Shown here in pieces: positions 94 through 29,526 of a stretch of DNA of 64,000 nucleotides. Made by a program: the position numbers and the translations under genes. The stretch lies in contig JANNSJ010000015.1 in the NCBI GenBank assembly GCA_031402435.1, positions 132,288 through 196,287 of the forward strand. The letters are read 5' to 3'. The first letter of the stretch is position 1; every line of letters begins with the position of its first letter. The notes beneath the pieces were generated by a model. The model was not told the DNA's origin. It did not search any database and saw nothing but the letters and a program-made list of their open reading frames with translations. The stretch comes from Bacteroidota bacterium (lineage in GTDB: Bacteria > Bacteroidota > Ignavibacteria > UBA10030 > UBA6906).

Positions 94-1902
94 ATGCGAC
101 TAAAAACCTACTGCGTTCTCATAGTTCTGTTAATTGCATTCTCATGCAAAAAGGACGACCCAACTCAACCCGTTGTTCCAACCTTTCCACAAGTCCACAT
201 CGTTAGCCCAATCAACAATAGTTCAATTGGTGGGGGTCTTGTACCCGTACTTGTTGAAGCGACTGATGATAATGGCGTGGCAAAAGTTGAGGTGTATGTT
301 GACAGCCAGCTCGACACTACGTTGGCTGTCCCGCCATACAGATATCTTTGGGACACAGGAATCTACCCTGACAGCAGCCGCCATGCGATGTTTGCCAAGG
401 CATATGACACCGACAACAATGTAACGGGGTCTACTGTTGTAGTGACCACGGTGTACACTCTGCGTCCTTCGAACCTTCAAGTGACGACAGCAACTGATAC
501 GTCCGTGACTCTGCAATGGAGCGACAATTCGAGAGTCGAAACAGGATACGAGATAGAACAAAGTGGGAACAATGGACCCTTTACGAGGGTGAAACAGGTT
601 GCGGCGAACACGATTACTGCTTTCGTTGCTGATACCTTTGATGTTGGAACCACATACAGATTCCGATTACGAGCGGTGAAAGATTCAACTGTAAGTGGCT
701 ATTCGAACGAGCCATCTTTCACATTACAGTTCCTGGCCCCAAGCAACTTAAATGTCACCTCACTTAGCGGCGGTGAAGTGAGATTGTCGTGGGTAGATAA
801 TTCAGCATTCGAAACTCGATTCCTTGTTGACCGTGCAGTGAATGGCGGCCAATACGTAACAATAGCCGCTCTGCCTGCCGATGCAGTCACTTTCAACAAT
901 ACTTCTCTCGATACGAACAATACACTTTCATATAGAATTAAGGCAGAATCAAGACATAACTCTTCATACAGCAACACAATCTCAATAAGATACTTTCCCT
1001 ACTATGACATCAGAACGCTGATTGGGGGCACCTACTCTGTCAATTCGGTTGCCTTTAGTCCAGACGGTAACACGATTGCAAGTGGGAGCTACGACCAAAA
1101 CATCAAGCTCTGGCGGGTAAGCGACGGTACTCTCCTCAGAACTCTGGCAGGACATACCAGCAGTGTCAATTCGGTTACCTTTAGCCCAAACGGTAACACG
1201 GTTGCAAGCGGAAGCTTTGATAACAGTATCAAGATCTGGCAGGTAAGCGACGGCACTTTGATCAGGACACTGACAGGGCACACTAGCAGTGTCAGATCCG
1301 TTACCTTCAGCCCAGACGGTGCCATGCTTGCAAGTGGGAGCTACGACCACAGCATCAAGCTCTGGCGGGTAAGCGACGGGACTCTACTTAGGACGCTGAT
1401 TGGAGATGCCAACGGTGTCTATTCGGTTGCCTTTAGCCCAGACGGTAACACGGTTGCAAGTGGTGGCGATGATAGCAGCATCAAGTTCTGGCGGGTAAGC
1501 GACGGTGCTCTGCTCAGAACACTGACAGGACACACCGCCCTTGTCAATTCGGTTGCCTTTAGTCCAGATGGGAACACGATTGCAAGTGGAAGCGCTGATA
1601 ACAGGATCAAGTTATGGCGGGTAGGCGACGGCGCTCTGCTCAGAACACTGCCAGGGGGGGCCGCCTACACTGTCAATTCGGTTGCCTTTGGTCCGGTCGG
1701 TAACATATTTGCAAGTGGTAGCGTTGACACCAGACTCTGGTGGCTGAGCGACGGGACTCTGCTCAGGACACAGCCAGGTGGTACCTACGGCGTCAGTTCG
1801 GTTGCTTTTAGTCCAGACGGTTATACGTTTGCAAGTGGGGGTGTCCAGAACGGCATCAAACTCTGGCAATCAGCAGGCAGCATCTGGCAGGTTGTACCAT
1901 GA
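94..1902 (+). CDS. Lipoprotein-signal protein with Ig-like/FN3 domains followed by ~7 canonical WD40 repeats
   Basis: 602-aa ORF. N-terminal signal with lipobox-like AFSC. Repeated units GHTSSVNSVTFSPDGNTVASGSYDxSIKLWRVSDGTLLRTL typical of WD40 (GH...WD-like spacing, 42 aa). Upstream FN3-like beta-rich segments (LQWSDNS, LSWVDNS). Confidence 0.8.
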   Translation: MRLKTYCVLIVLLIAFSCKKDDPTQPVVPTFPQVHIVSPINNSSIGGGLVPVLVEATDDNGVAKVEVYVDSQLDTTLAVPPYRYLWDTGIYPDSSRHAMFAKAYDTDNNVTGSTVVVTTVYTLRPSNLQVTTATDTSVTLQWSDNSRVETGYEIEQSGNNGPFTRVKQVAANTITAFVADTFDVGTTYRFRLRAVKDSTVSGYSNEPSFTLQFLAPSNLNVTSLSGGEVRLSWVDNSAFETRFLVDRAVNGGQYVTIAALPADAVTFNNTSLDTNNTLSYRIKAESRHNSSYSNTISIRYFPYYDIRTLIGGTYSVNSVAFSPDGNTIASGSYDQNIKLWRVSDGTLLRTLAGHTSSVNSVTFSPNGNTVASGSFDNSIKIWQVSDGTLIRTLTGHTSSVRSVTFSPDGAMLASGSYDHSIKLWRVSDGTLLRTLIGDANGVYSVAFSPDGNTVASGGDDSSIKFWRVSDGALLRTLTGHTALVNSVAFSPDGNTIASGSADNRIKLWRVGDGALLRTLPGGAAYTVNSVAFGPVGNIFASGSVDTRLWWLSDGTLLRTQPGGTYGVSSVAFSPDGYTFASGGVQNGIKLWQSAGSIWQVVP

Positions 1903-2070
1903 ACGTTGGGTAGAGCGCGAATTCTCAGAAGCGTTGACATTCCGAGCCGTTATTTCTATATTGTTCAGGCAATAAAGCAAGAATGGATCTGTAGCTTAAA
2001 TTGGCAGCACACCCTGTCGGCCATCCGGCCTCTCAAACGAAAAAGCACGAACATCGATGGACTTTCAAGA

Positions 2071-2799
2071 ATGAAGATTATCCGACCAGCAATCCGAGGA
2101 GTATTCAAGTCCTTTGGCTATGAGGTTGTCAAACTTGCACGATTCCATCAATCTCTCGGAACGCCTAACGACCTTCAGAATACTGAGATTATTAACCGTA
2201 CGTCGGACTATACGATGACACCCCCCGAATCGATACACAATCTTCTGAAGGGGGTTGAGTATGTTGTGGAGAATCATATTCCTGGCGCTATCGTAGAATG
2301 TGGGGTATGGAGGGGCGGGTCAATGATGGCGGTTGCAATGAAATTGAGTGAGATGAAGGTAGACAGGCCCATTTTTCTGTACGATACCTTTGCCGGCATG
2401 TCAAAACCTACCGGTGACGATGTAAATGCGAACGGCATGGTGGCGGATGATGTTCTTAAGGAAGTCGTAAACCATACGGCGGCGGGCATTGATCTCGTGA
2501 AGGGAAATATGAACTCAACCGGATACAAGAATGTTCGTTACGTTGAAGGTGACGTGGTAGAAACACTACGATCAACGAAACCGGACAATATAGCGATTCT
2601 CAGACTCGACACGGATTGGTACGAAAGTACAAAGGCAGAGCTTGAGCATCTCTATCCGTTGCTTTCTCCAGGTGGAATACTGATTGTTGACGACTATGGC
2701 GGATGGCTTGGAGCAAGGAAGGCAACAGATGAATTCTTCAAGGGAAAGAAGATGCTTACAAGGTTTGCCAGTAACGGCGGAGTAATGGCGATAAAGTAA
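2071..2799 (+). CDS. TylF/MycF-family (macrocin-type) class I SAM-dependent O-methyltransferase
   Basis: ORF 1906..2799; likely start at MKIIRP (ATG 2071). Motifs GAIVECGVWRGGSMMA, LYDTFAGM, LRLDTDWYESTKAELEHLYPLLSPGGILIVDDYGGW match TylF family signatures. Confidence 0.7.
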   Translation: MKIIRPAIRGVFKSFGYEVVKLARFHQSLGTPNDLQNTEIINRTSDYTMTPPESIHNLLKGVEYVVENHIPGAIVECGVWRGGSMMAVAMKLSEMKVDRPIFLYDTFAGMSKPTGDDVNANGMVADDVLKEVVNHTAAGIDLVKGNMNSTGYKNVRYVEGDVVETLRSTKPDNIAILRLDTDWYESTKAELEHLYPLLSPGGILIVDDYGGWLGARKATDEFFKGKKMLTRFASNGGVMAIK

Positions 2800-2817
2800 T
2801 TGTACAGTAGTTAACAT

Positions 2818-2890
2818 GGGGCTGTAGCTCAGCTGGGAGAGCGCGTGAATGGCATTCACGAGGCCAGGGGTTCGATCCCCCTCAGCTCCA
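2818..2890 (+). tRNA. tRNA-Ala (anticodon GGC)
   Basis: Cloverleaf GGGGCTG-TA-GCTC..GAGC-G-CGTGA-ATGGCAT-TCACG-..-TTCGATC-..-CAGCTCC-A. G3:U70 wobble pair, the alanine identity element. CCA not encoded (followed by CAA). Confidence 0.85.
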
Positions 2891-3073
2891 CAAAAGGGAA
2901 CCAAGAGGTTCCCTTTTCTATTCATCCGCCGCACGCCGAGGTCAAAACACGACGCTCCGTGGAATGCTTTGCTCCTCACTCAAATCACCCAATCACCCCT
3001 GTTTGGAAATCAGCATGGAAATTGGTTAATTCATGCTGAAACATTTGCTTTGTCCCATTTCCTCTCGTTCTCC

Positions 3074-4399
3074 ATGGATCCGTTCTGGATCGAAGCAATC
3101 GGCGTACTCTTTCTCATCATCCTTATCGGGCTATTCTCGGCGTGCGAGGTGGCGGTCGTCTCGACGCGCAAGAGCCGCATGAAGGAACTGGCAGACGAGG
3201 GGAACCGCAGCGCCGCCATTGTCCTCCAATTCCAGAACAACCCCGAGCAGTTCCTTGCAACAATCCACGTGGGGGTGGTGTCATTCATGACTCTTGCCTC
3301 TGGGCTGGCCGGCATCATGGGGTTCCAGCACCTTGCACCGGCGCTGCAAGCGAGTGAGACACTATGGATCAGTGAGGGGAGCGGGTGGATCTCGCTGGTG
3401 ATCATGGTTGTCGGCATTGGCTCTCTGGTTGTGGTGCTTGGAGAGCTGGTTCCCAAGTCACTTGCGCTCCGCTTTGCCGAACCCGTGGCTCTTCGCGTTG
3501 CCTCGCCGCTCTCGCTGTTTGCCGCCGTCTTCCGTTATCCCGTCAAACTGCTCACGATGGCGAGCAACCTGTTCCTGATGCCGTTCAAGGACAGGACGTC
3601 GTTCATGGAATCGAGGATCTCCGAAGAGGAACTCAAGCTGATTCTCGTGGAGGGGACGAAGACCGGCGTCATCGACAAGACCGAGCATGAACTGATCGAG
3701 AGCATCTTCGAGTTCACCGATACGACGGCGAAGGAAGTCATGATTCCGCGTCCGGATGTTGTTGCCATCAACATCGATACGCCGCGGGATAAGGTGATCA
3801 AGATCGTGCTCGAAGAGGGCTACTCACGCATGCCGGTCTACAAGGATACGATCGATAATATTCTCGGTGTGGTGTACACCAAGGACCTGCTCGGACTGCT
3901 CGAATACCGCGATCTTATTATTATTCAGGATGTGATTCGTCCGGCGTACTTCATTCCCGAGACCAAGAAGATCAGCAAGCTCATGCGTGAGTTGCAGCAG
4001 AAGAAGCTGCACATGGCCATCATCATTGATGAGTTCGGCGGGACGGAAGGCATTGTGACCATGGAGGACATCCTCGAAGAGATCGTGGGGGAAATCCACG
4101 ATGAGTACGATGAAGTGCTGAAGGACGTGGAGTCCTCCGCTGATGGTTCGTTCCTTGTGAACGCCAGGATTTCCGTGAGCGACTTCAATGAGCGCTTTCA
4201 CACCTCCATCCCCGAAGCGGATGAGTACGACACACTCAGTGGTTACCTCAACAAGCTCTCCGGCCGCATCCCCGACCTCAACGAAGAACTCAAGACCGAG
4301 TCCCTTTCGTTCACCATTGTCAAGAAGAGCCAGCGCCGCATCCGGCTGGTGAAGGTGAAGAAGCTGACGGCGGTGGCGGTTCCGACGAGGCAGGGGTAG
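3074..4399 (+). CDS. CorC/HlyC (TlyC/CNNM) family membrane protein: DUF21 transmembrane domain + CBS pair + CorC_HlyC transporter-associated domain
   Basis: True start almost certainly MDPFWIEAIGVLFLII at 3074. The upstream part of ORF 2849..4399 reads through the tRNA-Ala. TM-rich N-terminus, CBS-like segments (VMIPRPDVVAI..., MAIIIDEFGGTEGIVTMEDILEEIVGEI), C-terminal FTIVKKSQRRIRLVKVKKL typical of CorC_HlyC. Confidence 0.85.
   Translation: MDPFWIEAIGVLFLIILIGLFSACEVAVVSTRKSRMKELADEGNRSAAIVLQFQNNPEQFLATIHVGVVSFMTLASGLAGIMGFQHLAPALQASETLWISEGSGWISLVIMVVGIGSLVVVLGELVPKSLALRFAEPVALRVASPLSLFAAVFRYPVKLLTMASNLFLMPFKDRTSFMESRISEEELKLILVEGTKTGVIDKTEHELIESIFEFTDTTAKEVMIPRPDVVAINIDTPRDKVIKIVLEEGYSRMPVYKDTIDNILGVVYTKDLLGLLEYRDLIIIQDVIRPAYFIPETKKISKLMRELQQKKLHMAIIIDEFGGTEGIVTMEDILEEIVGEIHDEYDEVLKDVESSADGSFLVNARISVSDFNERFHTSIPEADEYDTLSGYLNKLSGRIPDLNEELKTESLSFTIVKKSQRRIRLVKVKKLTAVAVPTRQG
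4306..4393 (+). repeat. Direct repeat copy 1 (native 3' end of the corC-family gene); further copies at 5180..5270 and 6282..6346
   Basis: ttcgttcaccattgtcaagaagagccagcgccgcatccggctggtgaaggtgaagaagctgacggcggtggcggttccgacgaggcag recurs ~90% identical at 5180-5270 and, 5'-truncated, at 6282-6346. Confidence 0.9.
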
Positions 4400-4513
4400 G
4401 TTGGAACAACAACGACATTCATGGAGTGAACACAGTAGTTATGCGGCATTGGTTTGCAAAGTAAATGAAAATCGGGGGAGTGAAAAAGGCGAGAATCTAT
4501 CGGAGGATGAAGG

Positions 4514-4798
4514 TCACTCGTAATGCGTCCACATTCGAATGACTTTAACGATTCGCTGCTCAGGAAGGATCTGGTAGACGAGTCGATGCTGAATGTTTAT
4601 CCGTCGAGAGTATGCACCAGCCAAATCTCCGACTAGCTTTTCATATGGAGGGGGTGTCTGAAAAGGACTGAGTTCGAGAACTTTGAGGAGCCGTTCAGCT
4701 TTTGGTTTTAGTCCTGTTGAAGCTAATTTCTTAGAGTCTTTCTGAGCTTGTTTTGTGAAAACAACAGTCCATCTCACCAAGGAAGCTCCGGTGAACAT
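4514..4798 (-). CDS. yoeB: YoeB/Txe-family type II toxin (RelE/ParE superfamily mRNA interferase)
   Basis: C-terminal half ...AYSRRINIQHRLVYQILPEQRIVKVIRMWTHYE aligns with E. coli YoeB (...WSRRITEEHRLVYAV...CRYHY). True start may be an internal GTG near 4777, abutting the antitoxin stop. Confidence 0.75.
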   Translation of the reverse strand: MFTGASLVRWTVVFTKQAQKDSKKLASTGLKPKAERLLKVLELSPFQTPPPYEKLVGDLAGAYSRRINIQHRLVYQILPEQRIVKVIRMWTHYE

Positions 4799-5010
4799 TT
4801 CTCAACAGGTGTTTTCAGTCCTCGTCGAATCGACTCGCGCATCTTGGGGATCGAAAGCAAATACAAGGTCTCTTGAATTGCACGCCAATCATCAAGTGAG
4901 AGGAGAACCCCTTTGTTTTTCTTCCCGATGATATGGACAGGCTCATGAGACTTTTCAGACTCGTCAAGAAGTCTCGAAAGGTTGGCTCGTGCTGCTGATA
5001 CTGTTTTCAT
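4774..5010 (-). CDS. yefM: YefM/Phd-family antitoxin
   Basis: MKTVSAARANLSRLLDESEKSHEPVHIIGKKNKGVLLSLDDWRAIQETLYLL matches the YefM pattern (SxSEARxNL....PVxIT..G..AVLLS.EEY..L.ET.YLL). Immediately upstream of and overlapping yoeB. ORF-track start 5040 is probably an N-terminal extension. Confidence 0.7.
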   Translation of the reverse strand: MKTVSAARANLSRLLDESEKSHEPVHIIGKKNKGVLLSLDDWRAIQETLYLLSIPKMRESIRRGLKTPVEKCSPELPW

Positions 5011-5314
5011 TAAATTCACCTTATTTGTTTCTATCTTCAAGATAGCTGTTTCTCAGAAGACTGTCAACGAGTTTCAATATCACGACGAAGGCAAACCAAC
5101 GCCGTATGACAACTGCAACAGCGACACTCACATTGTTTGGCAAGGCTATGTTGAACCGCAGTTTGCTCTAAGAATTGAGTTCGTTCACCATTGTCAAGAA
5201 GAGCCAGCGCCGCATCCGGTTGGCGAAGGTGAAGAAGCTGACGGCGGTTGCGGTGCCCACGAGGCAGACATAACCATTGAGACTAATCCTGGAGGGTGAG
5301 ACATAAAAGCAATT

Positions 5315-6283
5315 GTGTATGAAAGATATGGGCCGCCCGATGTTCTTCAATTGAAGGAGGTCGAAAAGCCCACGCCCAAAGACAATGAAGTCCTGATAAA
5401 AATACACGCGACAACGGTAACATCAGGGGACTGGAGGGTACGAAGTCTCAATGTGCCTGCCGGGTTCAGACTAATGTCGCGTCTGTTTTTTGGAGTCTCA
5501 AAACCAAAGCAGCCCATCCTCGGAACGGAACTCGCCGGTGAAATTGAGTCGGTCGGCAAGGACGTAAGCAAATTCAAAGTTGGTGACAAGGTGTTTGCAT
5601 TCAACGATGTGGGCATGGGTTGTTATGCGGAGTATAAATGCATGCCGGAAGCCGGAGCGGTGGCACTCAAGCCGCCCAATCTCACCTACGATGAAGCTGC
5701 CGCATTGTCGTTTGGTGGAACAACGGCGTTGAGTTTCTTCAAAAGAGGAAAACTTCAGAGCGGGGAAAAGGTGCTCGTCAATGGCGCTTCAGGCGGAGTA
5801 GGCACCGCTGCGGTACAGCTTGCCAAACACTTCGGGGCAGAGGTGACCGGAGTGTGCAGTACAACGAACATGGAATTGGTAAAATCGCTGGGTGCCAGTC
5901 ATGTCATTGACTATACCAAAGAGGACTTCACGCAGAATGGTGAAACGTATGGCGTCATTGTCGACACTGCCGGCACGGCGCCGTTCTCACGTTGCAAAGA
6001 TTCGCTAAAGCAAGGCGGGCGCCTTCTTCAAGTATTAGGCGGACTGCCGGACCTGCTTCAGGTTCCTTGGGTGTCGCTCACGAGCAGTAAGAAAGTGATC
6101 GCCGGGCCGGCACCGGGGCGTGCAGAGGATTTGCTTTTCCTTGCGAAGCTGGTTGAGGCGGGAGAATTCAAACCGGTCATTGACCGGTGCTATCCATTCG
6201 AGCAGATCGCTGAGGCTCACCGCTACGTTGATACCGGACGCAAGAGAGGAAATGTTATCATAACTCTGGGGCGTGATGGCTAG
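5315..6283 (+). CDS. Medium-chain dehydrogenase/reductase (zinc-binding ADH / NADPH:quinone oxidoreductase family)
   Basis: 322 aa. GroES-like N-domain (VLIKIHATTVTSGDWRV) and Rossmann motif NGASGGVGTAAVQLAK. Stop codon abuts repeat copy 3. Confidence 0.8.
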   Translation: MYERYGPPDVLQLKEVEKPTPKDNEVLIKIHATTVTSGDWRVRSLNVPAGFRLMSRLFFGVSKPKQPILGTELAGEIESVGKDVSKFKVGDKVFAFNDVGMGCYAEYKCMPEAGAVALKPPNLTYDEAAALSFGGTTALSFFKRGKLQSGEKVLVNGASGGVGTAAVQLAKHFGAEVTGVCSTTNMELVKSLGASHVIDYTKEDFTQNGETYGVIVDTAGTAPFSRCKDSLKQGGRLLQVLGGLPDLLQVPWVSLTSSKKVIAGPAPGRAEDLLFLAKLVEAGEFKPVIDRCYPFEQIAEAHRYVDTGRKRGNVIITLGRDG

Positions 6284-6430
6284 CGCCGCATCTGGCTGGT
6301 GAAGGTGAAGAAGCTGACGGTAGTGGCGGTGCCGACGAGGCAGACAAGTTGAAACAACGACATAATGTCGGCTATCCACCTATGATGGGCTGAACAACGA
6401 CACTCATATCGTATCAGAGGGATCTGTGAT

Positions 6431-7420
6431 ATGGCAACCGAAATCAAGACTTGGCAGATAGTAAACGGTAAGCTCACGGTGGTGAACTCTTCTCTGCCTG
6501 AGAACAATCGCAAAGAGAGGGAAGACCTTGAACGATGGATAAAGAGCAATCCCGAGATTCTCGGGGAAGACATCGCCGTATTTGGTGAGCAAATTCAAAC
6601 CAAATCTGGTCCACTGGACTTCCTCGGAATTGATAACAATGGCAATCTTGTCATCGTTGAACTGAAGCGTGACCACCTTCCGAGAGAGGTTCTCGCACAA
6701 GCCATAGACTACGCATCTGATGTTTCAACGTGGGAGATTGATAAGCTTGGTGAAATCTGTCAAGCATTCACTGGTCAGAACCTTGAAGACTTCTTTGCCC
6801 AAAAGTTTCCAGATACGTCTATCGAGGAATTGGTAATCAATCAAGCCCAACGACTTCTCCTTGTCGGGTTCTCAATTGAAGAATCTCTGAACCGAATGAT
6901 CGAGTGGCTTTCATCCAAATACAGCATTGGCATCAACGCTATCATTCTCAAGTATGTCAAGACATCGAACGGGGACGAGCTTCTTTCCCGCACAGTTATC
7001 ATCCCCGAAGAAGTTGAGCGAGAGAAGACAAACAAGAAGAAGTTTGTAATCGCAAAGTCAAACGAGCCTGGGAACTATGATGAAGCAACGGTGAAGGAGA
7101 AGCTGACTCAATACTTATCCCTGGATATGTATTCCGCCAAACGAATTAGAGACTACGTTCTTCCGATTCTACTCAAGAACGAGGTAACGACGAGAGAGGA
7201 AATGCGGAAAGAGTTTATTAAGATGGGCGGCGCAACCGAAAGTCAGGCGGGGTATTTTCTGGCTCTCATTTCCAGTCAACTTGGTTTCAAGTGGAACGAT
7301 TTTCTCAGGCAAGTAATCAAATATGAATTCCCGAACAACGAGTGGGAGAAAGACAACTTCACTATCCGAACAGAGTACCGTGACCTTGTCAAACAAGTCT
7401 TGAAGAATCTTGGAAAATAG
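6431..7420 (+). CDS. PD-(D/E)xK nuclease-superfamily protein (NucS/DUF91/Shedu-like restriction-endonuclease fold) with uncharacterised helical C-terminal domain
   Basis: N-terminal region DLERWIKSNPEILGEDIAVFGEQIQTKSGPLDFLGIDNNGNLVIVELKRD carries the D...(D/E)xK arrangement (D-x-n-ELK) typical of NucS-like/restriction-endonuclease-like domains. Confidence 0.6.
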   Translation: MATEIKTWQIVNGKLTVVNSSLPENNRKEREDLERWIKSNPEILGEDIAVFGEQIQTKSGPLDFLGIDNNGNLVIVELKRDHLPREVLAQAIDYASDVSTWEIDKLGEICQAFTGQNLEDFFAQKFPDTSIEELVINQAQRLLLVGFSIEESLNRMIEWLSSKYSIGINAIILKYVKTSNGDELLSRTVIIPEEVEREKTNKKKFVIAKSNEPGNYDEATVKEKLTQYLSLDMYSAKRIRDYVLPILLKNEVTTREEMRKEFIKMGGATESQAGYFLALISSQLGFKWNDFLRQVIKYEFPNNEWEKDNFTIRTEYRDLVKQVLKNLGK

Positions 7421-7606
7421 ACCGTGCCCAACAGCGACAAACTGCGTCGCCACTCAATTTGCAAGGCTCGGCCAAAACATGTTGGAGCAAGCTCAGAAAG
7501 AGTTTGCTTCACACAGCACTCCATTGTAAAGAGCGCGGAGTGCGGCTGCCGTAGTTTGCGGCACGCATCCTGCTCAACTGCTTTTCATAATAGAAAGATT
7601 GCTCGA

Positions 7607-8521
7607 ATGCCGTTGTACAAACTAGCACACAAGCAGCTTGAACTCATCAAAGAGAATTCATTCAGGCTGGAGAAGGAAGTGCAAGAGATTGTCGAGGCAA
7701 ATATGGACTCTCTTTTTGGGTCAAAACTTGTCAGGCATGAGTTTTCCCTTAGTGGATTGAGAATCGATACGCTTGGATACGACAAGGATGCTCAATCGTT
7801 TGTCATCATCGAGTACAAGAGGGGATCGAACTATTCGGTTGTGGACCAGGGAATGGCTTACCTCGGATTGATGCTCAACAACAAAGCTGAGTTCATTTTG
7901 GAATACAACGAGAGATGTAATGCTTCTCTCAAACGGGATGACGTTGACTGGTCTCAATCGAAGGTGATCTTCATCTCGCCCTCATTCACAAGCTTTCAGC
8001 TTGAGGCAATCAACTTCAAGGATTTGCCGATTGAGTTGTGGGAAGTAAAACGTTACTCAAACAACACTGTCAGGTTCGACCAACACAAGCCAACGGCTAC
8101 GGTTGCTTCCATTAAGACTGTGTCAAAGAAGAGCGAGGTAGTCGAAGCAATTAACAGGGAGGTAAAGACCTACACCGAAGAAGCTCATTTGAAAGTAGCT
8201 CAGCCGACCATTGCTGAAATGTACACTAGATACAAGGAGCTTGTGTTAGCTATTAGCCCTGAGTTGTCTGTCAAACCGATGAAATGGTACATTGCCTTCC
8301 GTGCGAAGACGAATATTACCGATGTTGTTGTTCTCAAGAAGTCACTTAAGATTTTCATCAACTTGCCGAAAGGTAAATTGGAGGACCCAAAAAAGCTCGT
8401 CCGCGATGTTTCAAAAGTCGGGCACTGGGGCAACGGCGACTATCAGATTCAGATCAGTACGGACGATGAATTAGAGTATATCATCTCCCTAGTCCGGCAG
8501 GCGTACAAACTGAACGAATAG
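7607..8521 (+). CDS. Second PD-(D/E)xK nuclease-like protein (paralog-like N-domain) with C-terminal domain containing a GHWGNGDY motif (DUF5655-like?)
   Basis: Likely start MPLYKLAHK (ATG 7607); ORF-track start 7424 is an extension. EKEVQEIVEANMDSLFGSKLVRHEFSLSGLRIDTLGYDKDAQSFVIIEYKRG repeats the nuclease-core pattern of the upstream gene. Confidence 0.55.
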   Translation: MPLYKLAHKQLELIKENSFRLEKEVQEIVEANMDSLFGSKLVRHEFSLSGLRIDTLGYDKDAQSFVIIEYKRGSNYSVVDQGMAYLGLMLNNKAEFILEYNERCNASLKRDDVDWSQSKVIFISPSFTSFQLEAINFKDLPIELWEVKRYSNNTVRFDQHKPTATVASIKTVSKKSEVVEAINREVKTYTEEAHLKVAQPTIAEMYTRYKELVLAISPELSVKPMKWYIAFRAKTNITDVVVLKKSLKIFINLPKGKLEDPKKLVRDVSKVGHWGNGDYQIQISTDDELEYIISLVRQAYKLNE

Positions 8522-8610
8522 CTGTGACCAAGCGGCGCTCTTTCATTTGATAAGGCTCTATTGGTAAATGTCCAACGCCCCAATAAAGTAGAGTCGATCT
8601 TGACGCCACA

Positions 8611-8667
8611 ACCCCGCTTTAGTCAAAGACACCTGGGAAATCGGCGAGGCGTACGATTCATTCATCG
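8611..8667 (+). repeat. Partial duplicate of the 5' end of the downstream SAM-methyltransferase gene (second copy 9985..10042)
   Basis: agtcaaagacacctgggaaatcggcgaggcgtacgattcattcatcg vs agtcatggacacatgggaaatcggagaggcgtacgattcattcatcg (4 mismatches in 47 nt). Encodes DTWEIGEAYDSFI in both. Confidence 0.85.
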
Positions 8668-8687
8668 TCAGGGGTCAGGCTATAGAT

Positions 8688-9242
8688 ATGGAGGAAACAC
8701 GCATGCGTAAAATCGTATCTGCTTCAGTGGCGATCATGGTGACGGGCTGGTTGACGGCTTTCGGAGTCCCATGCTACGCGATACCTTTGCCTTTGGAATC
8801 CCAGGATCAAGCCGGGCAAGAACCAGTTGTCGGTAAGGAATTTCAAGCCATGATGGCTAAGGTCGATACCGCCCAGCTTGAACTCCAAAACGGGAGGGTG
8901 GAAGCCTTCAAGGCACTCTGGTCTCATGCTGACGATGTTACCCTTTCGGGAGGGTTCGGCGGTGCAATTGAAAAGGGATGGAGAAATGTCAGCAAGCGGC
9001 TCGATTGGGTTGGCGGGCAGTTTTCGAAGGGTACGAATACCATCGAGCGGATTGTGGTAAATGCAAATAGTGACCTTGCCTATGTGGTGCAGATCGAGCA
9101 CATCCGTTTTCACGTTCCAGGTCAGGCAAAAGAGTCGGCCCGCGACTACAGGGTAACGATGGTGTTCCGACGCGAGTCTGAGGGTTGGCGTATCGTCCAT
9201 CGCCATGCAGATTCGCAGATGATGAAACAGGCGCCGAAGTAA
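8688..9242 (+). CDS. Secreted NTF2-like (SnoaL/DUF4440-type) protein
   Basis: Signal peptide (IVSASVAIMVTGWLTAFG). Motifs FKALWSHADDVTLSGGFGG...YRVTMVFRRESEGWRIVHRHAD fit the nuclear-transport-factor-2-like fold family. Confidence 0.55.
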   Translation: MEETRMRKIVSASVAIMVTGWLTAFGVPCYAIPLPLESQDQAGQEPVVGKEFQAMMAKVDTAQLELQNGRVEAFKALWSHADDVTLSGGFGGAIEKGWRNVSKRLDWVGGQFSKGTNTIERIVVNANSDLAYVVQIEHIRFHVPGQAKESARDYRVTMVFRRESEGWRIVHRHADSQMMKQAPK

Positions 9243-9251
9243 CTGTCGTCC

Positions 9252-9956
9252 TTGCCATTCATCGGCTCCATATGGTTCGCCACGCTTTTGATATTTTCCT
9301 TACGGTCGGAATGTTCTGCTCAAGAGGAGGACTACGGAATCGGAATAATCATTCCTCCGGGCGGCGGTAATATGCACGCTGTCATCTACTCCAAGCCTTA
9401 TGTTGGTTCCGATACCATAGCCACTCTTACGAAATGGGAGTACACCTTTCACGGCCACAACGAGAAAGTGCGTCCCTACCTCGCAGGGTTTCACAGGTAT
9501 GACTATTGGGGAGTACCCATTCTGTCCATAAGCCACGACTCCTCTTGGGCAGAGGTCTTCGTTGCATCCTCCGATTGGACAACAAAAACGAAAGGGTGGA
9601 TCAACCTCAAAATTCCCAACACTACCGTTCGTGTCTGGGCAGACTTTCTGCGGACGCAATCAATGGTCTTGAACGGTAATAATCCTCCACGGTTCTACTC
9701 CAAGCCAAACAAGAGTGCCCCGCTCAGCATGAACCTGTTTCGCTTTCGCAGTCTGGACGAATTTAGTTACATTCTCAAACCCATTCGACGAGAAGGGCGT
9801 TGGTTACTCGTTGAGCTTCACACTCCATTTCTCCCCTGTGCCGATGAAGATGCGGTCGTGCACGAGCCCGGCCTTCACCCGCGAACAACCAGAGTGTGGA
9901 TTGAATACATAGACGAGCGAGGGCGACCGCTCGCTCAAGCTCCAATGATGTGCTGA
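9252..9956 (+). CDS. Hypothetical secreted protein
   Basis: 234 aa, N-terminal signal peptide (IWFATLLIFSLRSECSAQ). No recognisable motif. Lies between the two methyltransferase-5'-end repeat copies. Confidence 0.5.
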   Translation: MPFIGSIWFATLLIFSLRSECSAQEEDYGIGIIIPPGGGNMHAVIYSKPYVGSDTIATLTKWEYTFHGHNEKVRPYLAGFHRYDYWGVPILSISHDSSWAEVFVASSDWTTKTKGWINLKIPNTTVRVWADFLRTQSMVLNGNNPPRFYSKPNKSAPLSMNLFRFRSLDEFSYILKPIRREGRWLLVELHTPFLPCADEDAVVHEPGLHPRTTRVWIEYIDERGRPLAQAPMMC

Positions 9957-9975
9957 CAGCAAAGAGTTCACAATC

Positions 9976-10782
9976 TTGAAACCAGACCCTCACTCAGTCA
10001 TGGACACATGGGAAATCGGAGAGGCGTACGATTCATTCATCGGACGCTGGAGCTTGCCGGTAGCGAGGGAATTTGTGCAATGGCTTGCAGCTTCTCCTAA
10101 GAGCAAATGGCTTGATGTCGGCTGCGGTACCGGAGCGCTGAGTCGAACCATCGTTGAGCTGGTTGATCCTGCAGAAGTACATGGAATCGATTCGGCACAA
10201 GGGTTCATCTCGTTTGCACAGGAGCGAACCAGTGATCGTCGGGTAACCTTTGCCGTGGGCGATGCGGAATCCCTTCAGGTGCAAGCGGGCGTGTACAACG
10301 CAGCAGTCTCGGCTCTTATGCTCAACTTTGTTTCTCGTCCTGATAAGATCGTCTCAGAGATGCAGCGTGTGGTAAAGCCCGGTGGGGTTGTAGCCTTCTA
10401 TGTTTGGGACTACGCGGAACGAATGCAGTTGCTGCGTTACTTTTGGGATGTGGCGGTGTCTCTCAATCCGGCAGTCTCCGCTTTGGATGAGGGAAAGAGA
10501 TTTCCGCTTTGCAATCCCGACCGGCTCAACGATCTCTTCGTTGCTCAGGGTCTGCACAACATCGAGGTGAGAGCGATTGAGGTGCCTACTCAGTTCTCTG
10601 ACTTTGATGATTACTGGAAACCATTTCTTGCCGGTCAGGGACCTGCGCCGGGTTACGTTGCTTCTCTTACTCCACAAAAGCAGGTAGCAATAAGAGAACG
10701 CCTTCGCACCACTCTGCCTATTGCGACTGACGGAACGATCAGCCTGGTGGCGCGTGCATGGGCTGTGAAAGGCAACGCGTAA
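9976..10782 (+). CDS. Class I SAM-dependent methyltransferase (Methyltransf_11-like)
   Basis: LDVGCGTGALSRTIVEL (motif I), VKPGGVVAFYVWDY (post-II). Confidence 0.8.
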   Translation: MKPDPHSVMDTWEIGEAYDSFIGRWSLPVAREFVQWLAASPKSKWLDVGCGTGALSRTIVELVDPAEVHGIDSAQGFISFAQERTSDRRVTFAVGDAESLQVQAGVYNAAVSALMLNFVSRPDKIVSEMQRVVKPGGVVAFYVWDYAERMQLLRYFWDVAVSLNPAVSALDEGKRFPLCNPDRLNDLFVAQGLHNIEVRAIEVPTQFSDFDDYWKPFLAGQGPAPGYVASLTPQKQVAIRERLRTTLPIATDGTISLVARAWAVKGNA

Positions 10783-25860: not shown

Positions 25861-26438
25861 TGAAGATCGGAATCCTGGGCGGGACGTTCAATCCTCCACA
25901 TGTCGGACACTTGATCGTTGCCGAACGAGTCCGTGAAGAACTTGCACTCGATACCATTCTGTTCATTCCTTCCGCTGTCTCACCCCACAAACAACATCTT
26001 CAGCCGGTTGATGCGATCTGTCGGATGGAGATGGTGCGTCTTGCCGTGCAAGGACAGCCGCACTTCAGTACTTCGGACATCGAGGTGTCCCGCGGTGGAA
26101 TATCCTACACTATTGACACGCTTGAACAACTCAAGCAACTGCATCCCGGTGACAACTTGTACCTGCTTATCGGCATGGACAACCTCACAGAGTTCAACAC
26201 ATGGAAATCTCCGGAGAAGATCGTCGAGCTGGCTGGTCTTGTTGTCATGACACGACCCGGCTTTGAACCGAATGGAGTTCTTCAAGAATACCGGAAGAAG
26301 TTGACACTCTGCCAGGTGCCCGAGATCGGGATTTCATCAAGCGAGATTCGAGAGCGAGTGAAACAAGGGAAGTCCATCCGATACCTTGTGCCGCAGGCAG
26401 TGGAGTCGTACATTCACGCCAGGAAGTTGTATCGTTGA
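25860..26438 (+). CDS. nadD: Nicotinate-nucleotide adenylyltransferase
   Basis: MKIGILGGTFNPPHVGHL (HxGH motif), ISSSEIRERV. Confidence 0.85.
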   Translation: MKIGILGGTFNPPHVGHLIVAERVREELALDTILFIPSAVSPHKQHLQPVDAICRMEMVRLAVQGQPHFSTSDIEVSRGGISYTIDTLEQLKQLHPGDNLYLLIGMDNLTEFNTWKSPEKIVELAGLVVMTRPGFEPNGVLQEYRKKLTLCQVPEIGISSSEIRERVKQGKSIRYLVPQAVESYIHARKLYR

Positions 26439-26449
26439 AAGGAGGTTCA

Positions 26450-27019
26450 ATGGTAAAACCCCGTGTGTTGGTGCCTGAAGTTATCGAGCGGAGAATTCTT
26501 CTTGTTCGTGGACAGAAGGTGATGCTGGATGCACATCTCGCAGAGCTTTATGGAGTTGAGACAAAAACACTTAAGAGAGCTGTCAAGAGGAACATGGATC
26601 GCTTCCCGGGAGATTTCATGCTTGAGTTGACCAAGGAGGAGTCCGACTCTTTAAGGTACCAATTTGGCACCTTAAAGAGGGGAGCACACACGAAGTACAC
26701 ATCATTTGTGTTCACCGAACAAGGTGTAGCCATGCTTTCCACCGTTCTCAAGAGTAAACCAGCCATTCAGGTCAATATTGAAATCATGCGGGCATTCGTC
26801 CGACTGCGAGAGATACTCTCAACACACAAAGACCTTGCCCGCAAGCTTGAAATGCTTGAGAAGAAATACGATGAGCAATTCAGTATTGTCTTTGAGGCGA
26901 TCCGACAACTCATGACTCCGCCCGATCCACCAAAGAAACGTCCCATAGGGTTTGGTGTTGAAGAACCCAAAGTGAAGTACCGCTCGAAGCCGTCGCGATG
27001 GCCGCAGTGGCAACGGTGA
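26450..27019 (+). CDS. ORF6N domain protein (KilA-N-like DNA-binding, phage antirepressor family)
   Basis: IRGQKVMLDAHLAELYGVETKTLKRAVKRNMDRFPGDFMLEL is the ORF6N signature. Confidence 0.7.
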   Translation: MVKPRVLVPEVIERRILLVRGQKVMLDAHLAELYGVETKTLKRAVKRNMDRFPGDFMLELTKEESDSLRYQFGTLKRGAHTKYTSFVFTEQGVAMLSTVLKSKPAIQVNIEIMRAFVRLREILSTHKDLARKLEMLEKKYDEQFSIVFEAIRQLMTPPDPPKKRPIGFGVEEPKVKYRSKPSRWPQWQR

Positions 27020-27023
27020 TCTA

Positions 27024-27091
27024 CCATTTTCACTAAAGTTTCCCACCAAAACCGTAGCCCTCATAGCTCAACAGTATAGAGCACAGGTTTC
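27024..27091 (+). repeat. Truncated duplicate of tRNA-Arg 5' half plus ~30 nt of its upstream region (partner copy 29392..29459)
   Basis: ccattttcactaaagtttcccaccaaaaccgtagccctcatagctcaacagtatagagcacaggtttc vs ccattttcactaaatttttccaccaaaaccgtagccctcatagctcaacaggatagagcacaggtttc. Confidence 0.85.
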
Positions 27092-29332: not shown

Positions 29333-29424
29333 AAGTGCCTTGAGCACCTCCAGGATTTTTCCCCGCAGACTGAAGTGCTTGCTTGCAACCTCCATTTTCA
29401 CTAAATTTTTCCACCAAAACCGTA

Positions 29425-29497
29425 GCCCTCATAGCTCAACAGGATAGAGCACAGGTTTCCTAAACCTGGAATCGAGGTTCGAGTCCCCGTGAGGGCA
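29425..29497 (+). tRNA. tRNA-Arg (anticodon CCU)
   Basis: GCCCTCA-TA-GCTC..GAGC-A-CAGGT-TTCCTAA-ACCTG-..-TTCGAGT-..-TGAGGGC-A. CCA not encoded. Confidence 0.85.
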
Positions 29498-29526
29498 CAA
29501 GGGATTTATGATTGTTGATTTTGGAT

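What the first reader, a model, noticed from the sequence alone, without database searches (positions are those of the whole stretch)
4306..6346. Triplicated 3' end of the corC-family gene delimits small cargo cassettes (TA module; MDR oxidoreductase)
The last ~90 nt of the CorC gene (coding ...FTIVKKSQRRIRLVKVKKLTAVAVPTRQ*) occur three times in direct orientation:
- 4306-4393: the intact gene end.
- 5180-5270: ~90% identical, out of frame, between the yefM-yoeB pair and the oxidoreductase.
- 6282-6346: 5'-truncated, beginning exactly at the oxidoreductase stop codon.
A short secondary motif gaacaacgaca(t/c) follows copies 1 and 3 (4404-4420, 6351-6362, 6391-6402).

This is the classical footprint of serial site-specific integration at an attB inside the 3' end of a gene, where each event regenerates the gene terminus. 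Here the units are only ~0.8-1 kb, carry one or two genes each, and no integrase or recombinase is visible. That could mean integron-like or satellite-like cassettes mobilised in trans, or decayed tandem islets.
Basis: partly seen in the sequence, partly recalled or inferred. Interest (0 to 1): 0.6.

Follow-up and report, generated by a model that had tools for sequence, protein, structure and literature searches.

The report
Stacked gene cassettes behind corC gene
Behind a magnesium-transporter gene of an uncultured Ignavibacteria species, small gene cassettes (toxin-antitoxin, oxidoreductase, candidate phage-defence genes) have piled up, each separated by a leftover copy of the transporter gene's last 60-100 bases; this is the scar of repeated one-crossover insertions, and no recombinase gene is visible.

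Summary
The last 88 nt of corC (4306-4393) recur at 5180-5267 (94%) and, 5'-truncated, at 6282-6343 (93.5%), and nowhere else in the window.

New evidence:
1. A same-species MAG contig (L112, 97% nt identity) has a different toxin-antitoxin pair (HigBA-type) at the same place. It is bracketed by its own 102-nt corC-end duplicate.
2. All five corC-end copies keep the reading frame and have their own stop codon. They differ mostly at synonymous sites (10 of 14 changes), so each was once a working gene end.
3. The 5' end of the methyltransferase gene on the other side is duplicated in mirror image (8573-8667). A tRNA-Arg 5' half is duplicated at 27 kb.
4. No recombinase family was found among the window's ORFs of at least 90 aa, there is no attC-like fold, and no copy of the repeat turned up in the phage-derived contigs, plasmid records or metagenome contigs searched.
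5. Two independent run assemblies reproduce 5349-10053 exactly.

Best reading: this is a strain-variable hotspot built by serial Campbell-type single crossovers that stack alternative haplotypes. The catalyst is unresolved. I lean towards homology-driven insertion of same-species DNA over a lost or trans-acting integrase. This is a variant of a known kind and of moderate interest.

The parts
2818..2891 (+). tRNA-Ala(GGC), context only; not duplicated
   Evidence: ARAGORN; Rfam tRNA
3074..4399 (+). corC/CNNM-family transporter gene (441 aa), the anchor gene
   Evidence: Pfam CNNM, CBS, CorC_HlyC. 100% identical to P0001. 99% aa identical to the sister-strain protein P0121.
4306..4393 (+). Copy 1: the working corC terminus (...PTRQ), followed by its own tail GGG TAG (4394-4399)
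4400..4443 (+). Shortened native corC-downstream spacer (here called d0'), with a fused AACAACGACAT motif (4405-4422) followed by GGAGTGAACACAGTAGTTATG
   Evidence: 4408-4443 is 89% identical to the spacer behind the displaced corC end in L112 (12191-12226). About 40 nt between the two motif copies are missing.
4433..4457 (.). Left arm of the 25-nt inverted repeat around the toxin-antitoxin unit
   Evidence: Inverted-repeat pair I1, 84% complementary. 19-20 nt are identical to the sequence after yoeB in L119 (5532-5551). A related arm is present in L126.
4514..4798 (-). YoeB-type toxin gene
   Evidence: Pfam YoeB_toxin and ParE_toxin
4774..5010 (-). YefM/Phd-type antitoxin gene
   Evidence: Pfam PhdYeFM_antitox. 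Member of a cluster of 17 proteins at 90% identity or more.
5011..5078 (-). Promoter-like sequence and palindrome upstream of the toxin-antitoxin operon (TTGACA...CTATCTTGAAGATAG), conserved together with the operon
   Evidence: Window 4514-5078 is 85% nt identical to L120 and L121 and about 80% to L119. Similar matches in L123, L125 and L126. The promoter and operator roles are read from the sequence, not tested.
5091..5115 (.). Right arm of the inverted repeat around the toxin-antitoxin unit
   Evidence: Equivalent arms lie upstream of yefM in L119 (4902-4915) and in L125/L126.
5117..5131 (+). Third copy of the AACAACGACAYTCAT motif (2 mismatches), just outside the right arm
5180..5267 (+). 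Copy 2: displaced corC terminus, 94% identical to copy 1, with its own tail ACA TAA (5268-5273)
   Evidence: Four of its five differences from copy 1 are synonymous.
5315..6283 (+). Medium-chain (zinc-type) oxidoreductase gene, the cargo of unit 2
   Evidence: Pfam ADH_N, ADH_zinc_N, ADH_zinc_N_2
6282..6343 (+). Copy 3: 5'-truncated displaced corC terminus with tail ACA AGT TGA (6344-6352). It has the same tail and downstream spacer as the displaced copy in the sister strain.
   Evidence: The junction is reproduced in L113 and L114.
6353..6407 (+). Native corC-downstream spacer (here called d0) with two direct AACAACGACA motifs (6353, 6393)
   Evidence: 87% identical to L112 12077-12200, counted together with copy 3
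6431..7420 (+). NucS_C-like nuclease-fold gene; matches candidate defence family PDC-S11
   Evidence: Pfam NucS_C; PADLOC PDC-S11, E = 4e-46
7607..8521 (+). DUF5655/NucS_C-like gene; matches candidate defence family PDC-S18
   Evidence: Pfam; PADLOC PDC-S18, E = 1.7e-131 over the full length
8573..8667 (+). Displaced 5' end of the SAM-methyltransferase gene: about 27 nt of upstream sequence, the TTG start and the first 68 nt of coding sequence. This is the mirror image of the corC remnants.
   Evidence: Aligns with 9936-10042; a 47-nt core is 91% identical. The same remnant and the same junction are present in L112 and L122.
8688..9242 (+). SnoaL-like gene; cargo shared with the sister strain
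   Evidence: Pfam SnoaL_3. 92% nt identical to L112 12295-12914.
9252..9956 (+). Hypothetical gene, absent from the sister strain
   Evidence: No Pfam family. In L112 the SnoaL gene is followed directly by the methyltransferase gene.
9976..10782 (+). SAM-dependent methyltransferase gene, the right-hand anchor gene
   Evidence: Pfam Methyltransf_11 and Methyltransf_25. 83-86% nt identical to L112 and L122.

Best explanation
The interval between corC and the methyltransferase gene is a strain-variable hotspot. It was built by repeated Campbell-type (single-crossover) insertions of short DNA segments, 0.7-1.4 kb long. Each segment carried cargo plus a copy of the end of the flanking gene.

Each insertion crossed over inside the last 60-100 nt of corC. 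It left the incoming terminus on the working gene and pushed the resident terminus, with everything behind it, further downstream. The array is therefore a stack of alternative haplotypes of one locus:
1. corC, short spacer, YefM-YoeB;
2. corC end, oxidoreductase;
3. corC end, spacer, two candidate defence genes.
The same process acted in mirror image at the 5' end of the methyltransferase gene, giving the remnant followed by the SnoaL gene.

Shown: the anatomy, the polymorphism between strains, the coding history of every copy, and the absence of a recombinase gene or attC structure in cis.

Inferred: the single-crossover mechanism itself, and my leaning that the crossovers were homology-driven (RecA-type) between the gene ends of circularised or one-end-anchored DNA from the same species, rather than made by a dedicated integrase. 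Toxin-antitoxin and defence cargo would be retained preferentially through addiction or selection.
For: 1. Three direct copies are found only here.
2. The same-species contig L112 (97.2% nt identity over 2464 nt) carries a different toxin-antitoxin pair (Gp49/HTH_3). It is bracketed by a 102-nt corC-end duplicate at 95% identity. Its distal copy has the same tail and spacer as window copy 3.
3. All five termini are in frame with their own stop codons. Ten of 14 changes are synonymous, against 26-29% expected (P about 0.0006-0.001). All five encode the same tail LT(A/V)VAVPTRQ, which none of the 29 closest other corC proteins read (78-85% identical) shows, so each was a working corC end of this species.
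4. Unit 1 contains native corC-downstream intergenic sequence (4408-4443, 89% identical to L112 12191-12226). This is expected for chromosomal donor DNA.
5. There is a mirror-image duplicate of the methyltransferase 5' end (8573-8667) and a duplicate of the tRNA-Arg 5' half (27024-27091). Two more cases exist in other Ignavibacteria: L120, about 85 nt around the homologous YefM-YoeB pair, and L039, 214 nt around one PAS-SpoIIE gene.
6. The left borders of the copies vary (corC positions 4292, 4306 and 4332), as expected for arbitrary fragment ends.
7. No recombinase family was found among the window's ORFs of at least 90 aa, nor upstream.
8. There is an experimental precedent. Circles carrying a truncated lacZ end integrate in E. 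coli by single crossover and leave duplications of 109-950 bp (PMC3240628).
Against: - Three different sequences start at exactly the same nucleotide after ...ACGAGGCAG: the oxidoreductase unit, the HigBA-type unit, and the native tail. In L120 the break is also within the last three codons of the target gene. Such precision looks site-specific.
- The tRNA-Arg duplicate ends in the anticodon loop, a classic integrase crossover site. tRNA-Arg(CCT) also has a partial copy in L022.
- A homologous YefM-YoeB unit in L119 lies next to an ORF6N gene and a Phage_integrase fragment.
- Homologous recombination over 60-100 nt at 90-95% identity should be inefficient.
- How the first duplicate at each site arose is not explained.
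- Only two strains of the species exist in public data, so no simple single-cassette haplotype has been seen.
Confidence: 0.5

Rival explanations
1. Site-specific accretion. Integrative elements with a tyrosine integrase used an attB in the last codons of corC, and their attP mimicked the gene end. Elements integrated one after another and then decayed to integrase-less remnants (CIME-like islets). Alternatively, they are cargo-only satellites moved by an integrase encoded elsewhere in the genome.
For: - Direct repeats containing the target gene's end, with the gene terminus regenerated each time.
- A common right border at ...GAGGCAG for different cargoes in two strains.
- Copy 3 is truncated exactly at the oxidoreductase stop codon, as a deletion during decay would produce.
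- The tRNA-Arg duplicate ends in the anticodon loop.
- Toxin-antitoxin cargo is typical of mobile elements, and the L119 homologue lies beside an integrase fragment.
- Tandem accretion and CIMEs are well documented (PMC5704250), as are partial tRNAs between stacked tycheposons.
Against: - No recombinase family was found among the window's ORFs of at least 90 aa, and none in the 10 kb upstream of corC in the sister strain.
- No second corC-end copy was found in the downstream flanks (up to 10 kb where the contig allowed) of 76 related corC loci that could be tested.
- The 20-nt core of the repeat gave only chance-level matches in phage-derived contigs and JGI metagenome contigs, and window 4280-6440 matched plasmid records only inside the oxidoreductase gene.
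- The oxidoreductase unit has almost no non-coding DNA for recombinase sites: 47 nt on the left and none on the right.
- Unit 1 carries host intergenic sequence.
- At least three different target sites within 64 kb (corC 3' end, methyltransferase 5' end, tRNA 5' half) would each need their own lost integrase.
- All copies carry a tail that none of the 29 closest other corC proteins read shows.
Confidence: 0.33
2. Long target duplication made in place. An unknown insertion mechanism with staggered cuts 60-200 nt apart, followed by fill-in, duplicated the resident corC end at each insertion.
For: Duplicate lengths fall in a limited range (62-214 nt) at several loci and in several species.
Against: - Copies made in place would start identical and then drift neutrally. 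Instead, the differences are mainly synonymous and the tails differ completely right after the shared part.
- The toxin-antitoxin unit shows no clear target-site duplication at its own inverted repeats (my reading).
Confidence: 0.06
3. Integron-like cassette array lacking its integrase (CALIN), with the corC-end repeats acting as attC sites.
For: The cassettes are small and hold one or two genes. Toxin-antitoxin cassettes are common in chromosomal integrons. In L119 a related toxin-antitoxin unit sits in a toxin-antitoxin-rich array with repeated structured spacers and an integrase fragment.
Against: - Folds of both strands of all three repeats are no better than shuffles (z from -0.72 to +0.79).
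- The repeats are coding sequence of corC.
- The cassettes are not co-oriented, and the toxin-antitoxin unit carries its own promoter.
- No IntI gene is present (Pfam).
Confidence: 0.02
4. Assembly artefact: haplotypes of co-existing strains were wrongly concatenated by the metagenome assembler.
For: The source is a MAG. Two strains with different cassettes occur in runs whose accession numbers are close together (SRR20217196, SRR20217205 and SRR20217213).
Against: - The copies differ from each other by 6-11% and have different left borders joined to unique sequence. A collapsed repeat would not produce this.
- Two independent run assemblies reproduce 5349-10053 and 6228-9136 exactly.
- An independent MAG shows the same architecture with different cargo.
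Confidence: 0.03

Closest known systems
CIMEs and tandem accretion of integrative elements at the 3' end of a gene (for example ICESt1/ICESt3-related elements at fda in Streptococcus thermophilus; review PMC5704250)
   Same: [quoted passage not shown] They are stacked in tandem, the gene is kept intact, and the content varies between strains.
   Different: - The units here are only 0.8-1.4 kb, with one or two genes.
- No cognate integrase or ICE is known.
- The repeats are long (62-102 nt) and diverged like alleles.
- One unit carries host intergenic DNA.
- A mirror-image duplicate sits at the 5' end of the neighbouring gene.
Campbell-type single-crossover integration of a circle carrying a truncated gene end (seen experimentally in E. 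coli conjugation, PMC3240628)
   Same: A direct duplication of the homologous gene-end segment (109-950 bp in the experiment) brackets the insert. One copy is truncated at an arbitrary point. No site-specific recombinase is needed.
   Different: That was a laboratory event with a plasmid. Here it would be a natural, repeated process using same-species DNA over shorter and mismatched homology, and the source of the circles is unknown.
Tycheposon arrays in Prochlorococcus genomic islands (bioRxiv 10.1101/2020.12.28.424599)
   Same: Successive integrations at one site push older elements inward. Elements and remnants are separated only by partial copies of the target gene.
   Different: Tycheposons target tRNA genes and are defined by their own tyrosine recombinase and replication modules. 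Neither is present here. The target here is a protein-coding gene end.
Integron gene cassettes and clusters of attC sites lacking an integrase (from general knowledge of integrons)
   Same: An array of small cassettes, including toxin-antitoxin cassettes, separated by similar repeats about 60-100 nt long.
   Different: There is no attC hairpin, no core sites and no IntI. Cassette orientation is mixed and one cassette has its own promoter. The repeats are the coding end of a housekeeping gene.
Homology-facilitated illegitimate recombination, and hotspots or 'minimal mobile elements' exchanged through conserved flanking genes (from general knowledge; PMC3240628 for the former)
   Same: A conserved flanking gene serves as a one-sided homology anchor for the gain of strain-specific cargo. 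No mobile-element genes are involved.
   Different: Those processes normally replace or delete resident DNA. Here the resident terminus is kept, giving additive stacking with duplicated anchors.

Membership tests
Integron cassette array / attC sites | attC site folds as an imperfect hairpin on one strand | tested here: not met
   Single-strand DNA folds of both strands of all three copies gave z-scores from -0.72 to +0.79 against 200 shuffles.
Integron cassette array / attC sites | IntI integrase and attI next to the array; co-oriented, mostly promoterless cassettes | tested here: not met
   No Phage_integrase hit among the window's ORFs of at least 90 aa. The toxin-antitoxin unit lies on the opposite strand and has its own conserved promoter-like sequence.
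CIME / tandem accretion of integrative elements | [quoted passage not shown] | tested here: met
   Copies 1-3 in the window and copies A and B in L112; every copy is in frame with its own stop codon.
CIME / tandem accretion of integrative elements | Integration and transfer genes have been lost from the unit | tested here: met
   The units hold only YefM-YoeB, an oxidoreductase, or nuclease-like genes.
CIME / tandem accretion of integrative elements | Descent from, or mobilisation in cis by, an element with a cognate site-specific integrase | not testable with these tools
   No integrase was found in the window or in the flanks of the sister strain. The rest of both genomes could not be read. 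No attP-like copy was found in viral contigs, plasmid records or JGI metagenome contigs.
Campbell-type homologous single-crossover insertion | A direct duplication of the homologous segment brackets the insert; the proximal copy completes the gene and the distal copy is truncated at an arbitrary 5' point | tested here: met
   The distal copies start at corC positions equivalent to 4306, 4332 and 4292, joined to unrelated sequence.
Campbell-type homologous single-crossover insertion | The incoming DNA is homologous chromosomal DNA: the copies are alleles, and flanking native sequence comes along | tested here: met
   Ten of 14 changes are synonymous (P about 0.001 or less). All copies share a tail not seen in any of the 29 closest other corC proteins read. 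Native spacer sequence lies inside unit 1.
Campbell-type homologous single-crossover insertion | Dependence on RecA and independence from a site-specific recombinase | not testable with these tools
   This needs genetics, or population read data showing scattered crossover points.
Tycheposons | A tycheposon-type tyrosine recombinase and integration at a tRNA gene | tested here: not met
   The target is corC and no recombinase is present. Only the separate tRNA-Arg duplicate at 27-29 kb resembles the tRNA footprint.
Xer-dependent dif/pdif modules | 28-bp XerC/XerD sites in opposite orientation flanking each module | tested here: inconclusive
   The toxin-antitoxin unit does have inverted 14-25-nt arms. 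By my own comparison with the dif consensus recalled from memory, only one half-site (CGCATAA) looks similar. No profile search was possible.
MITE-like (transposase-less) element, for the toxin-antitoxin unit only | Terminal inverted repeats conserved with the unit in unrelated contexts | tested here: met
   The arms CGGCRTTKGTTTGC and GCAAACCAATGMCG flank the homologous operon in the window, in L119 and in L125/L126.
MITE-like (transposase-less) element, for the toxin-antitoxin unit only | Target-site duplication and several copies per genome | tested here: not met
   No consistent short direct repeat lies next to the arms in the three contexts (my reading). The arm pattern CAAACCAAYGCCGYATRAC matched only L119 among the 123 loci held at the time.
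Type II toxin-antitoxin, YefM-YoeB | Adjacent or overlapping Phd/YefM antitoxin and YoeB/ParE-fold toxin genes | tested here: met
   Pfam PF02604 (1.4e-17) and PF06769/PF05016.

The most novel reading that the evidence does not exclude
Ignavibacteria may have an integrase-free way of capturing cassettes. Short pieces of same-species DNA, each carrying the end of a conserved gene as a portable 'homology handle', would insert by one crossover. They would stack up behind that gene and could later loop out and move again by recombination between the handles. This would be an integron-like, additive cassette system that runs on general recombination alone. It would act at both 3' and 5' gene ends and at tRNA genes, and would preferentially accumulate toxin-antitoxin and defence genes.
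Probability: 0.25. Interest if true: 0.65.

Novelty: new variant of a known kind. Interest (0 to 1): 0.45.

Why it matters
Hotspots that gather toxin-antitoxin and defence genes without any visible mobile-element machinery are common in bacterial pangenomes, and how genes get into them is still debated. This locus preserves the scars unusually well. Every displaced gene end is still readable, two strains differ, and both flanking genes carry remnants. The order and type of the events can therefore be reconstructed.

If the insertions prove to be homology-driven, the locus would show how a hotspot can grow by addition rather than replacement without an integrase. If a trans-acting integrase is found instead, it would define very small cargo-only satellites that target a protein-coding gene end in a little-studied phylum.

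Tried and rejected
1. attC-like folding of the repeats on both strands: no signal.
2. Rfam scan of 2700-10200 at a permissive threshold: only the tRNA and one chance hit.
3. Recombinase search by Pfam over the 57 non-overlapping ORFs of at least 90 aa picked from the window: none.
4. Left flank of the window via L124, and the 10 kb upstream of corC in the sister strain: no recombinase.
5. Search for other copies of the repeat:
   - JGI metagenome contigs, 20-mer: 31 hits, all chance-level.
   - IMG/VR viral contigs: 4 chance hits.
   - PLSDB plasmids: only weak oxidoreductase similarity.
6. Eighty corC loci from other species:
   - No downstream synteny.
   - Each has a single match to the repeat, at its own gene end.
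   - No self-duplication of the corC end in the 76 loci with enough downstream sequence.
7. Empty site (corC directly followed by the methyltransferase): not found in any genome.
8. Exact-protein look-ups for corC, the oxidoreductase, YoeB and YefM found no further contigs. The corC cluster at 90% identity has only two members, so no third strain is available.
9. dif/Xer-site reading of the toxin-antitoxin inverted repeat: only a partial half-site by eye, so not pursued.
10. Target-site duplication for the toxin-antitoxin unit: a possible TATG in the window is not repeated in L119 or L126, so rejected.
11. Crossover mapping from shared variants. In L112 the variants split cleanly between positions 40 and 44, but with five sites this has about a 1 in 10 chance. 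The window copies are uninformative.
12. Tandem-duplication origin: rejected, because the cargo itself is not duplicated.

Full report
**1. The observation**

corC (3074-4399, plus strand; Pfam CNNM, CBS and CorC_HlyC) ends with an 88-nt segment, 4306-4393. This segment recurs in direct orientation at 5180-5267, with 83 of 88 nt identical. It recurs again, truncated at its 5' side, at 6282-6343, with 58 of 62 nt identical.

Copy 3 starts inside the TAG stop codon of the oxidoreductase gene (6281-6283). A 38-nt core of the repeat, allowing up to 3 mismatches, matches only these three places in the 64 kb; none is expected by chance.

It also lies at 5117, just before copy 2.

**2. What lies between the copies**

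- Unit 1 holds a YoeB toxin gene (4514-4798, minus strand) and a YefM antitoxin gene (4774-5010, minus strand).
- Unit 2 holds a zinc-type oxidoreductase gene (5315-6283).
- Behind copy 3 come two nuclease-fold genes (6431-7420 and 7607-8521). They match the PADLOC candidate defence families PDC-S11 (E = 4e-46) and PDC-S18 (E = 1.7e-131).
- Next come a SnoaL-like gene (8688-9242), a hypothetical gene (9252-9956) and a SAM-methyltransferase gene (9976-10782).

**3. A second, mirror-image footprint**

The first 68 nt of the methyltransferase gene, its TTG start and about 27 nt of upstream sequence are duplicated at 8573-8667, immediately before the SnoaL gene. Both genes that flank the variable interval have therefore left remnants of their ends inside it.

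**4. Organism and comparators**

The nearest species representatives are Ignavibacteria/Bacteroidota MAGs with corC only about 82% identical at the protein level.

- None of the 80 loci retrieved shares the downstream genes.
- Each has only one match to the repeat, at its own gene end.
- Of 78 loci where the gene end could be located, 76 had enough downstream sequence to test, and none repeats its own corC end there.

The corC protein cluster at 90% identity has just two members. The second, P0121 (99% identical), lies on JANNFP010000170.1 of GCA_031379955.1 (locus L112). L112 is 97.2% identical in nucleotides to window 1932-4393, so it is the same species.

**5. The sister strain**

In L112, corC is followed by a different toxin-antitoxin pair: an HTH_3 antitoxin and a Gp49/HigB-type toxin, again on the opposite strand. 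After this pair comes a second copy of the corC end, 102 nt long and 95% identical. Then follow the same tail and spacer that follow window copy 3, then a decayed version of the methyltransferase 5' remnant, the SnoaL gene and the methyltransferase gene.

L112 lacks YefM-YoeB, the oxidoreductase, both nuclease-like genes and the hypothetical gene 9252-9956. The site is therefore polymorphic within the species, and the same type of scar arose with different cargo. A Logan contig from run SRR20217213 (L122) matches the L112 haplotype at 99.9%.

**6. Is it an assembly artefact?**

Logan contigs from two runs, SRR20217205 and SRR20217196, are 100% identical to window 5349-10053 and 6228-9136. They span the oxidoreductase/copy 3 junction and the methyltransferase remnant. 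The copies differ from each other by 6-11% and are joined to unique sequence at different left borders. A collapsed or chimeric assembly would not produce this. The junctions around copies 1 and 2 lack an independent check.

**7. The copies were once working gene ends**

Read in the corC frame, all five termini (three in the window, two in L112) are open and end with their own stop codon:

| Copy | Ending |
|---|---|
| Window copy 1 | ...PTRQG* |
| Window copy 2 | ...PTRQT* |
| Window copy 3 | ...PTRQTS* |
| L112 copy A | ...PTRQQ* |
| L112 copy B | ...PTRQTS* |

There are 14 changes at 13 variable sites, and 10 of them are synonymous. Random change would give 26-29% synonymous (binomial P about 0.0006-0.001). 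All five copies encode the tail LT(A/V)VAVPTRQ. None of the 29 closest other corC proteins read (78-85% identical) shows this tail. The copies are therefore alternative alleles of the corC end of this species that were displaced recently. They are not duplicates that arose in place and then decayed.

**8. Borders of the copies**

On the right, homology among the copies stops at the same nucleotide, ...ACGAGGCAG. Four different continuations follow:

- GGGTAG (window copy 1)
- ACATAA (window copy 2)
- ACAAGTTGA (window copy 3 and L112 copy B)
- CAGTGA (L112 copy A)

Copies 1 and 3 resume similarity after the tail, in the spacer with the AACAACGACA motifs. The sequence after copy 1 (4408-4443) is 89% identical to the native spacer of L112 (12191-12226), with about 40 nt between the two motif copies missing. 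Unit 1 therefore contains native corC-downstream intergenic DNA.

On the left, the displaced copies begin at different corC positions, equivalent to 4306, 4332 and 4292. Each is joined to unrelated sequence.

**9. The toxin-antitoxin unit is a module of its own**

The window's YefM belongs to a cluster of 17 proteins at 90% identity or more. The operon with its promoter-like sequence (window 5078-4514) is 80-85% identical in nucleotides to copies in unrelated contexts: L119, L120/L121, L123 and L125/L126.

In the window, in L119 and in L125/L126 it is flanked by inverted arms, CGGCRTTKGTTTGC and GCAAACCAATGMCG. I found no consistent target-site duplication.

In L120 and L121 (L120 comes from a MAG of the nearest species) the arms are absent. 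There the operon is bracketed by an approximately 85-nt duplicate of the 3' end of a different, convergent gene. Homology again ends three codons before that gene's stop.

**10. More footprints of the same kind**

- In the window, 33 nt of upstream sequence plus the first 35 nt of tRNA-Arg(CCT) (29392-29459) are duplicated at 27024-27091 (96% identity). The pair brackets one cyclase/TPR gene. The duplicate ends in the anticodon loop.
- In L039, a 214-nt duplicate (96.7% identity) of the TauE gene end brackets one PAS-SpoIIE gene.
- In L022, tRNA-Arg(CCT) has a 45-nt partial copy 1.1 kb away.

Such dispersed repeats are rare overall. The blast scan listed repeat pairs in only nine loci besides the window across 1.59 Mb of sequence held. 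In the window it listed the corC copies and the tRNA-Arg pair. The methyltransferase pair, which that scan did not list, came from the repeat finder.

**11. What is absent**

- Pfam scans of the 57 non-overlapping ORFs of at least 90 aa picked from the window found no recombinase, transposase or relaxase family.
- None lies in the 2 kb to the left of the window or in the 10 kb upstream of corC in L112.
- The repeats do not fold like attC sites and match no Rfam family.
- No copy of the repeat was found in JGI metagenome contigs or IMG/VR contigs, and window 4280-6440 matched PLSDB plasmids only inside the oxidoreductase gene.

**12. Interpretation**

The anatomy is what a single crossover between a gene end and a circular, or one-end-anchored, DNA carrying a copy of that gene end produces. 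The gene keeps a complete end, now partly from the incoming DNA. The cargo follows. The resident end, truncated where the incoming fragment began, is pushed downstream. Repeating this gives the observed stack. Acting from the other side, it gives the methyltransferase 5' remnant.

Two catalysts fit.

(a) General homologous recombination with DNA from the same species. In favour:
- the allele-like copies that share one tail;
- the native spacer inside unit 1;
- the several different targets, including 5' ends;
- the arbitrary left borders;
- the ordinary chromosomal cargo in some cases;
- the absence of any recombinase;
- a laboratory precedent in which truncated lacZ-end circles integrate by single crossover and leave 109-950 bp duplications (PMC3240628).

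(b) A site-specific integrase that has been lost or acts in trans, as in CIME accretion (PMC5704250) or tycheposon arrays. In favour:
- the identical right border for different cargoes;
- the break within the last three codons in L120 as well;
- the anticodon-loop junction at tRNA-Arg;
- the integrase fragment beside the homologous toxin-antitoxin unit in L119.

I lean slightly towards (a), but the data do not decide. My confidence is 0.5 for the Campbell-type stacking statement with this leaning, and 0.33 for the integrase rival.

**13. Verdict**

The general idea of serial insertions that regenerate the gene end is supported. The integron-like variant is rejected. Site-specificity is unproven.

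The locus is a well-preserved example of additive growth of a toxin-antitoxin and defence hotspot without visible mobile-element machinery. It is a variant of a known kind and of moderate interest.

Noticed in passing
window 27024-27091 and 29392-29459 (tRNA-Arg 29425-29498): A 68-nt direct repeat (96% identity) consists of 33 nt of upstream sequence plus the first 35 nt of tRNA-Arg(CCT). It ends in the anticodon loop. The pair brackets a single adenylate/guanylate-cyclase + TPR gene (27287-29332), with no integrase. An ORF6N gene (26435-27019; PADLOC PDC-S05) lies just to the left.
   Followed up: partly
window 8573-8667 versus 9936-10042: The 5' end of the SAM-methyltransferase gene, with its start codon and upstream sequence, is duplicated in front of the SnoaL gene. 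The same remnant and junction occur in the sister strain, so this insertion predates the split between the two strains.
   Followed up: yes
window 5303-5317: Upstream of the GTG start at 5315, the oxidoreductase reading frame continues as ATA AAA GCA ATT (IKAI). To my eye this looks like a typical MKAIV... N-terminus whose ATG has become ATA. It could be a start-codon mutation or an early sign of decay.
   Followed up: no
window 94-1932 versus L112 7290-8857 and L124: The region upstream of the TylF-type methyltransferase gene also differs between the two strains. The window strain has a 250-aa gene plus a 602-aa WD40 gene, where L112 has a 140-aa gene. The conserved block TylF / tRNA-Ala / corC is thus only about 2.5 kb long, with variable DNA on both sides.
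   Followed up: partly
window 6431-8521: The two adjacent nuclease-fold genes match the PADLOC candidate single-gene defence families PDC-S11 and PDC-S18. The corC hotspot therefore also acts as a small defence islet.
   Followed up: partly
L120 1766-1852 and 2488-2575 (same arrangement in L121): In L120, from a MAG of the nearest species, the homologous YefM-YoeB operon is bracketed by an approximately 85-nt duplicate of the 3' end of a convergent 475-aa gene. The break is three codons before that gene's stop, and the remnant has two 1-nt deletions.
   Followed up: yes
L039 2062-2275 and 4793-5006: A 214-nt direct repeat (96.7% identity), made of the TauE-family gene's 3' end plus 40 nt, brackets one PAS-SpoIIE phosphatase gene in another Ignavibacteriota genome.
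   Followed up: partly
L119 1000-6700: A toxin-antitoxin-rich island (CopG, Gp49/HTH, HicAB, YefM-YoeB) contains a repeated GC-rich palindromic spacer element (1550-1703 and 5552-5779). An ORF6N gene and an 83-aa Phage_integrase fragment lie at one end. It could be a decayed integrative element or an integron-like array.
   Followed up: partly
L022 17962-18037 and 19105-19149: tRNA-Arg(CCT) has a 45-nt partial copy (84% identity) 1.1 kb downstream, bracketing a 294-aa ORF with no Pfam family. The same tRNA species is the target in the window.
   Followed up: no
window 4433-4457 / 5091-5115; L119 4902-4915 / 5532-5551; L125/L126: The YefM-YoeB operon travels with inverted arms of 14-25 nt in three unrelated contexts. 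This suggests a discrete toxin-antitoxin module of about 650 bp. How it moves is unknown.
   Followed up: partly
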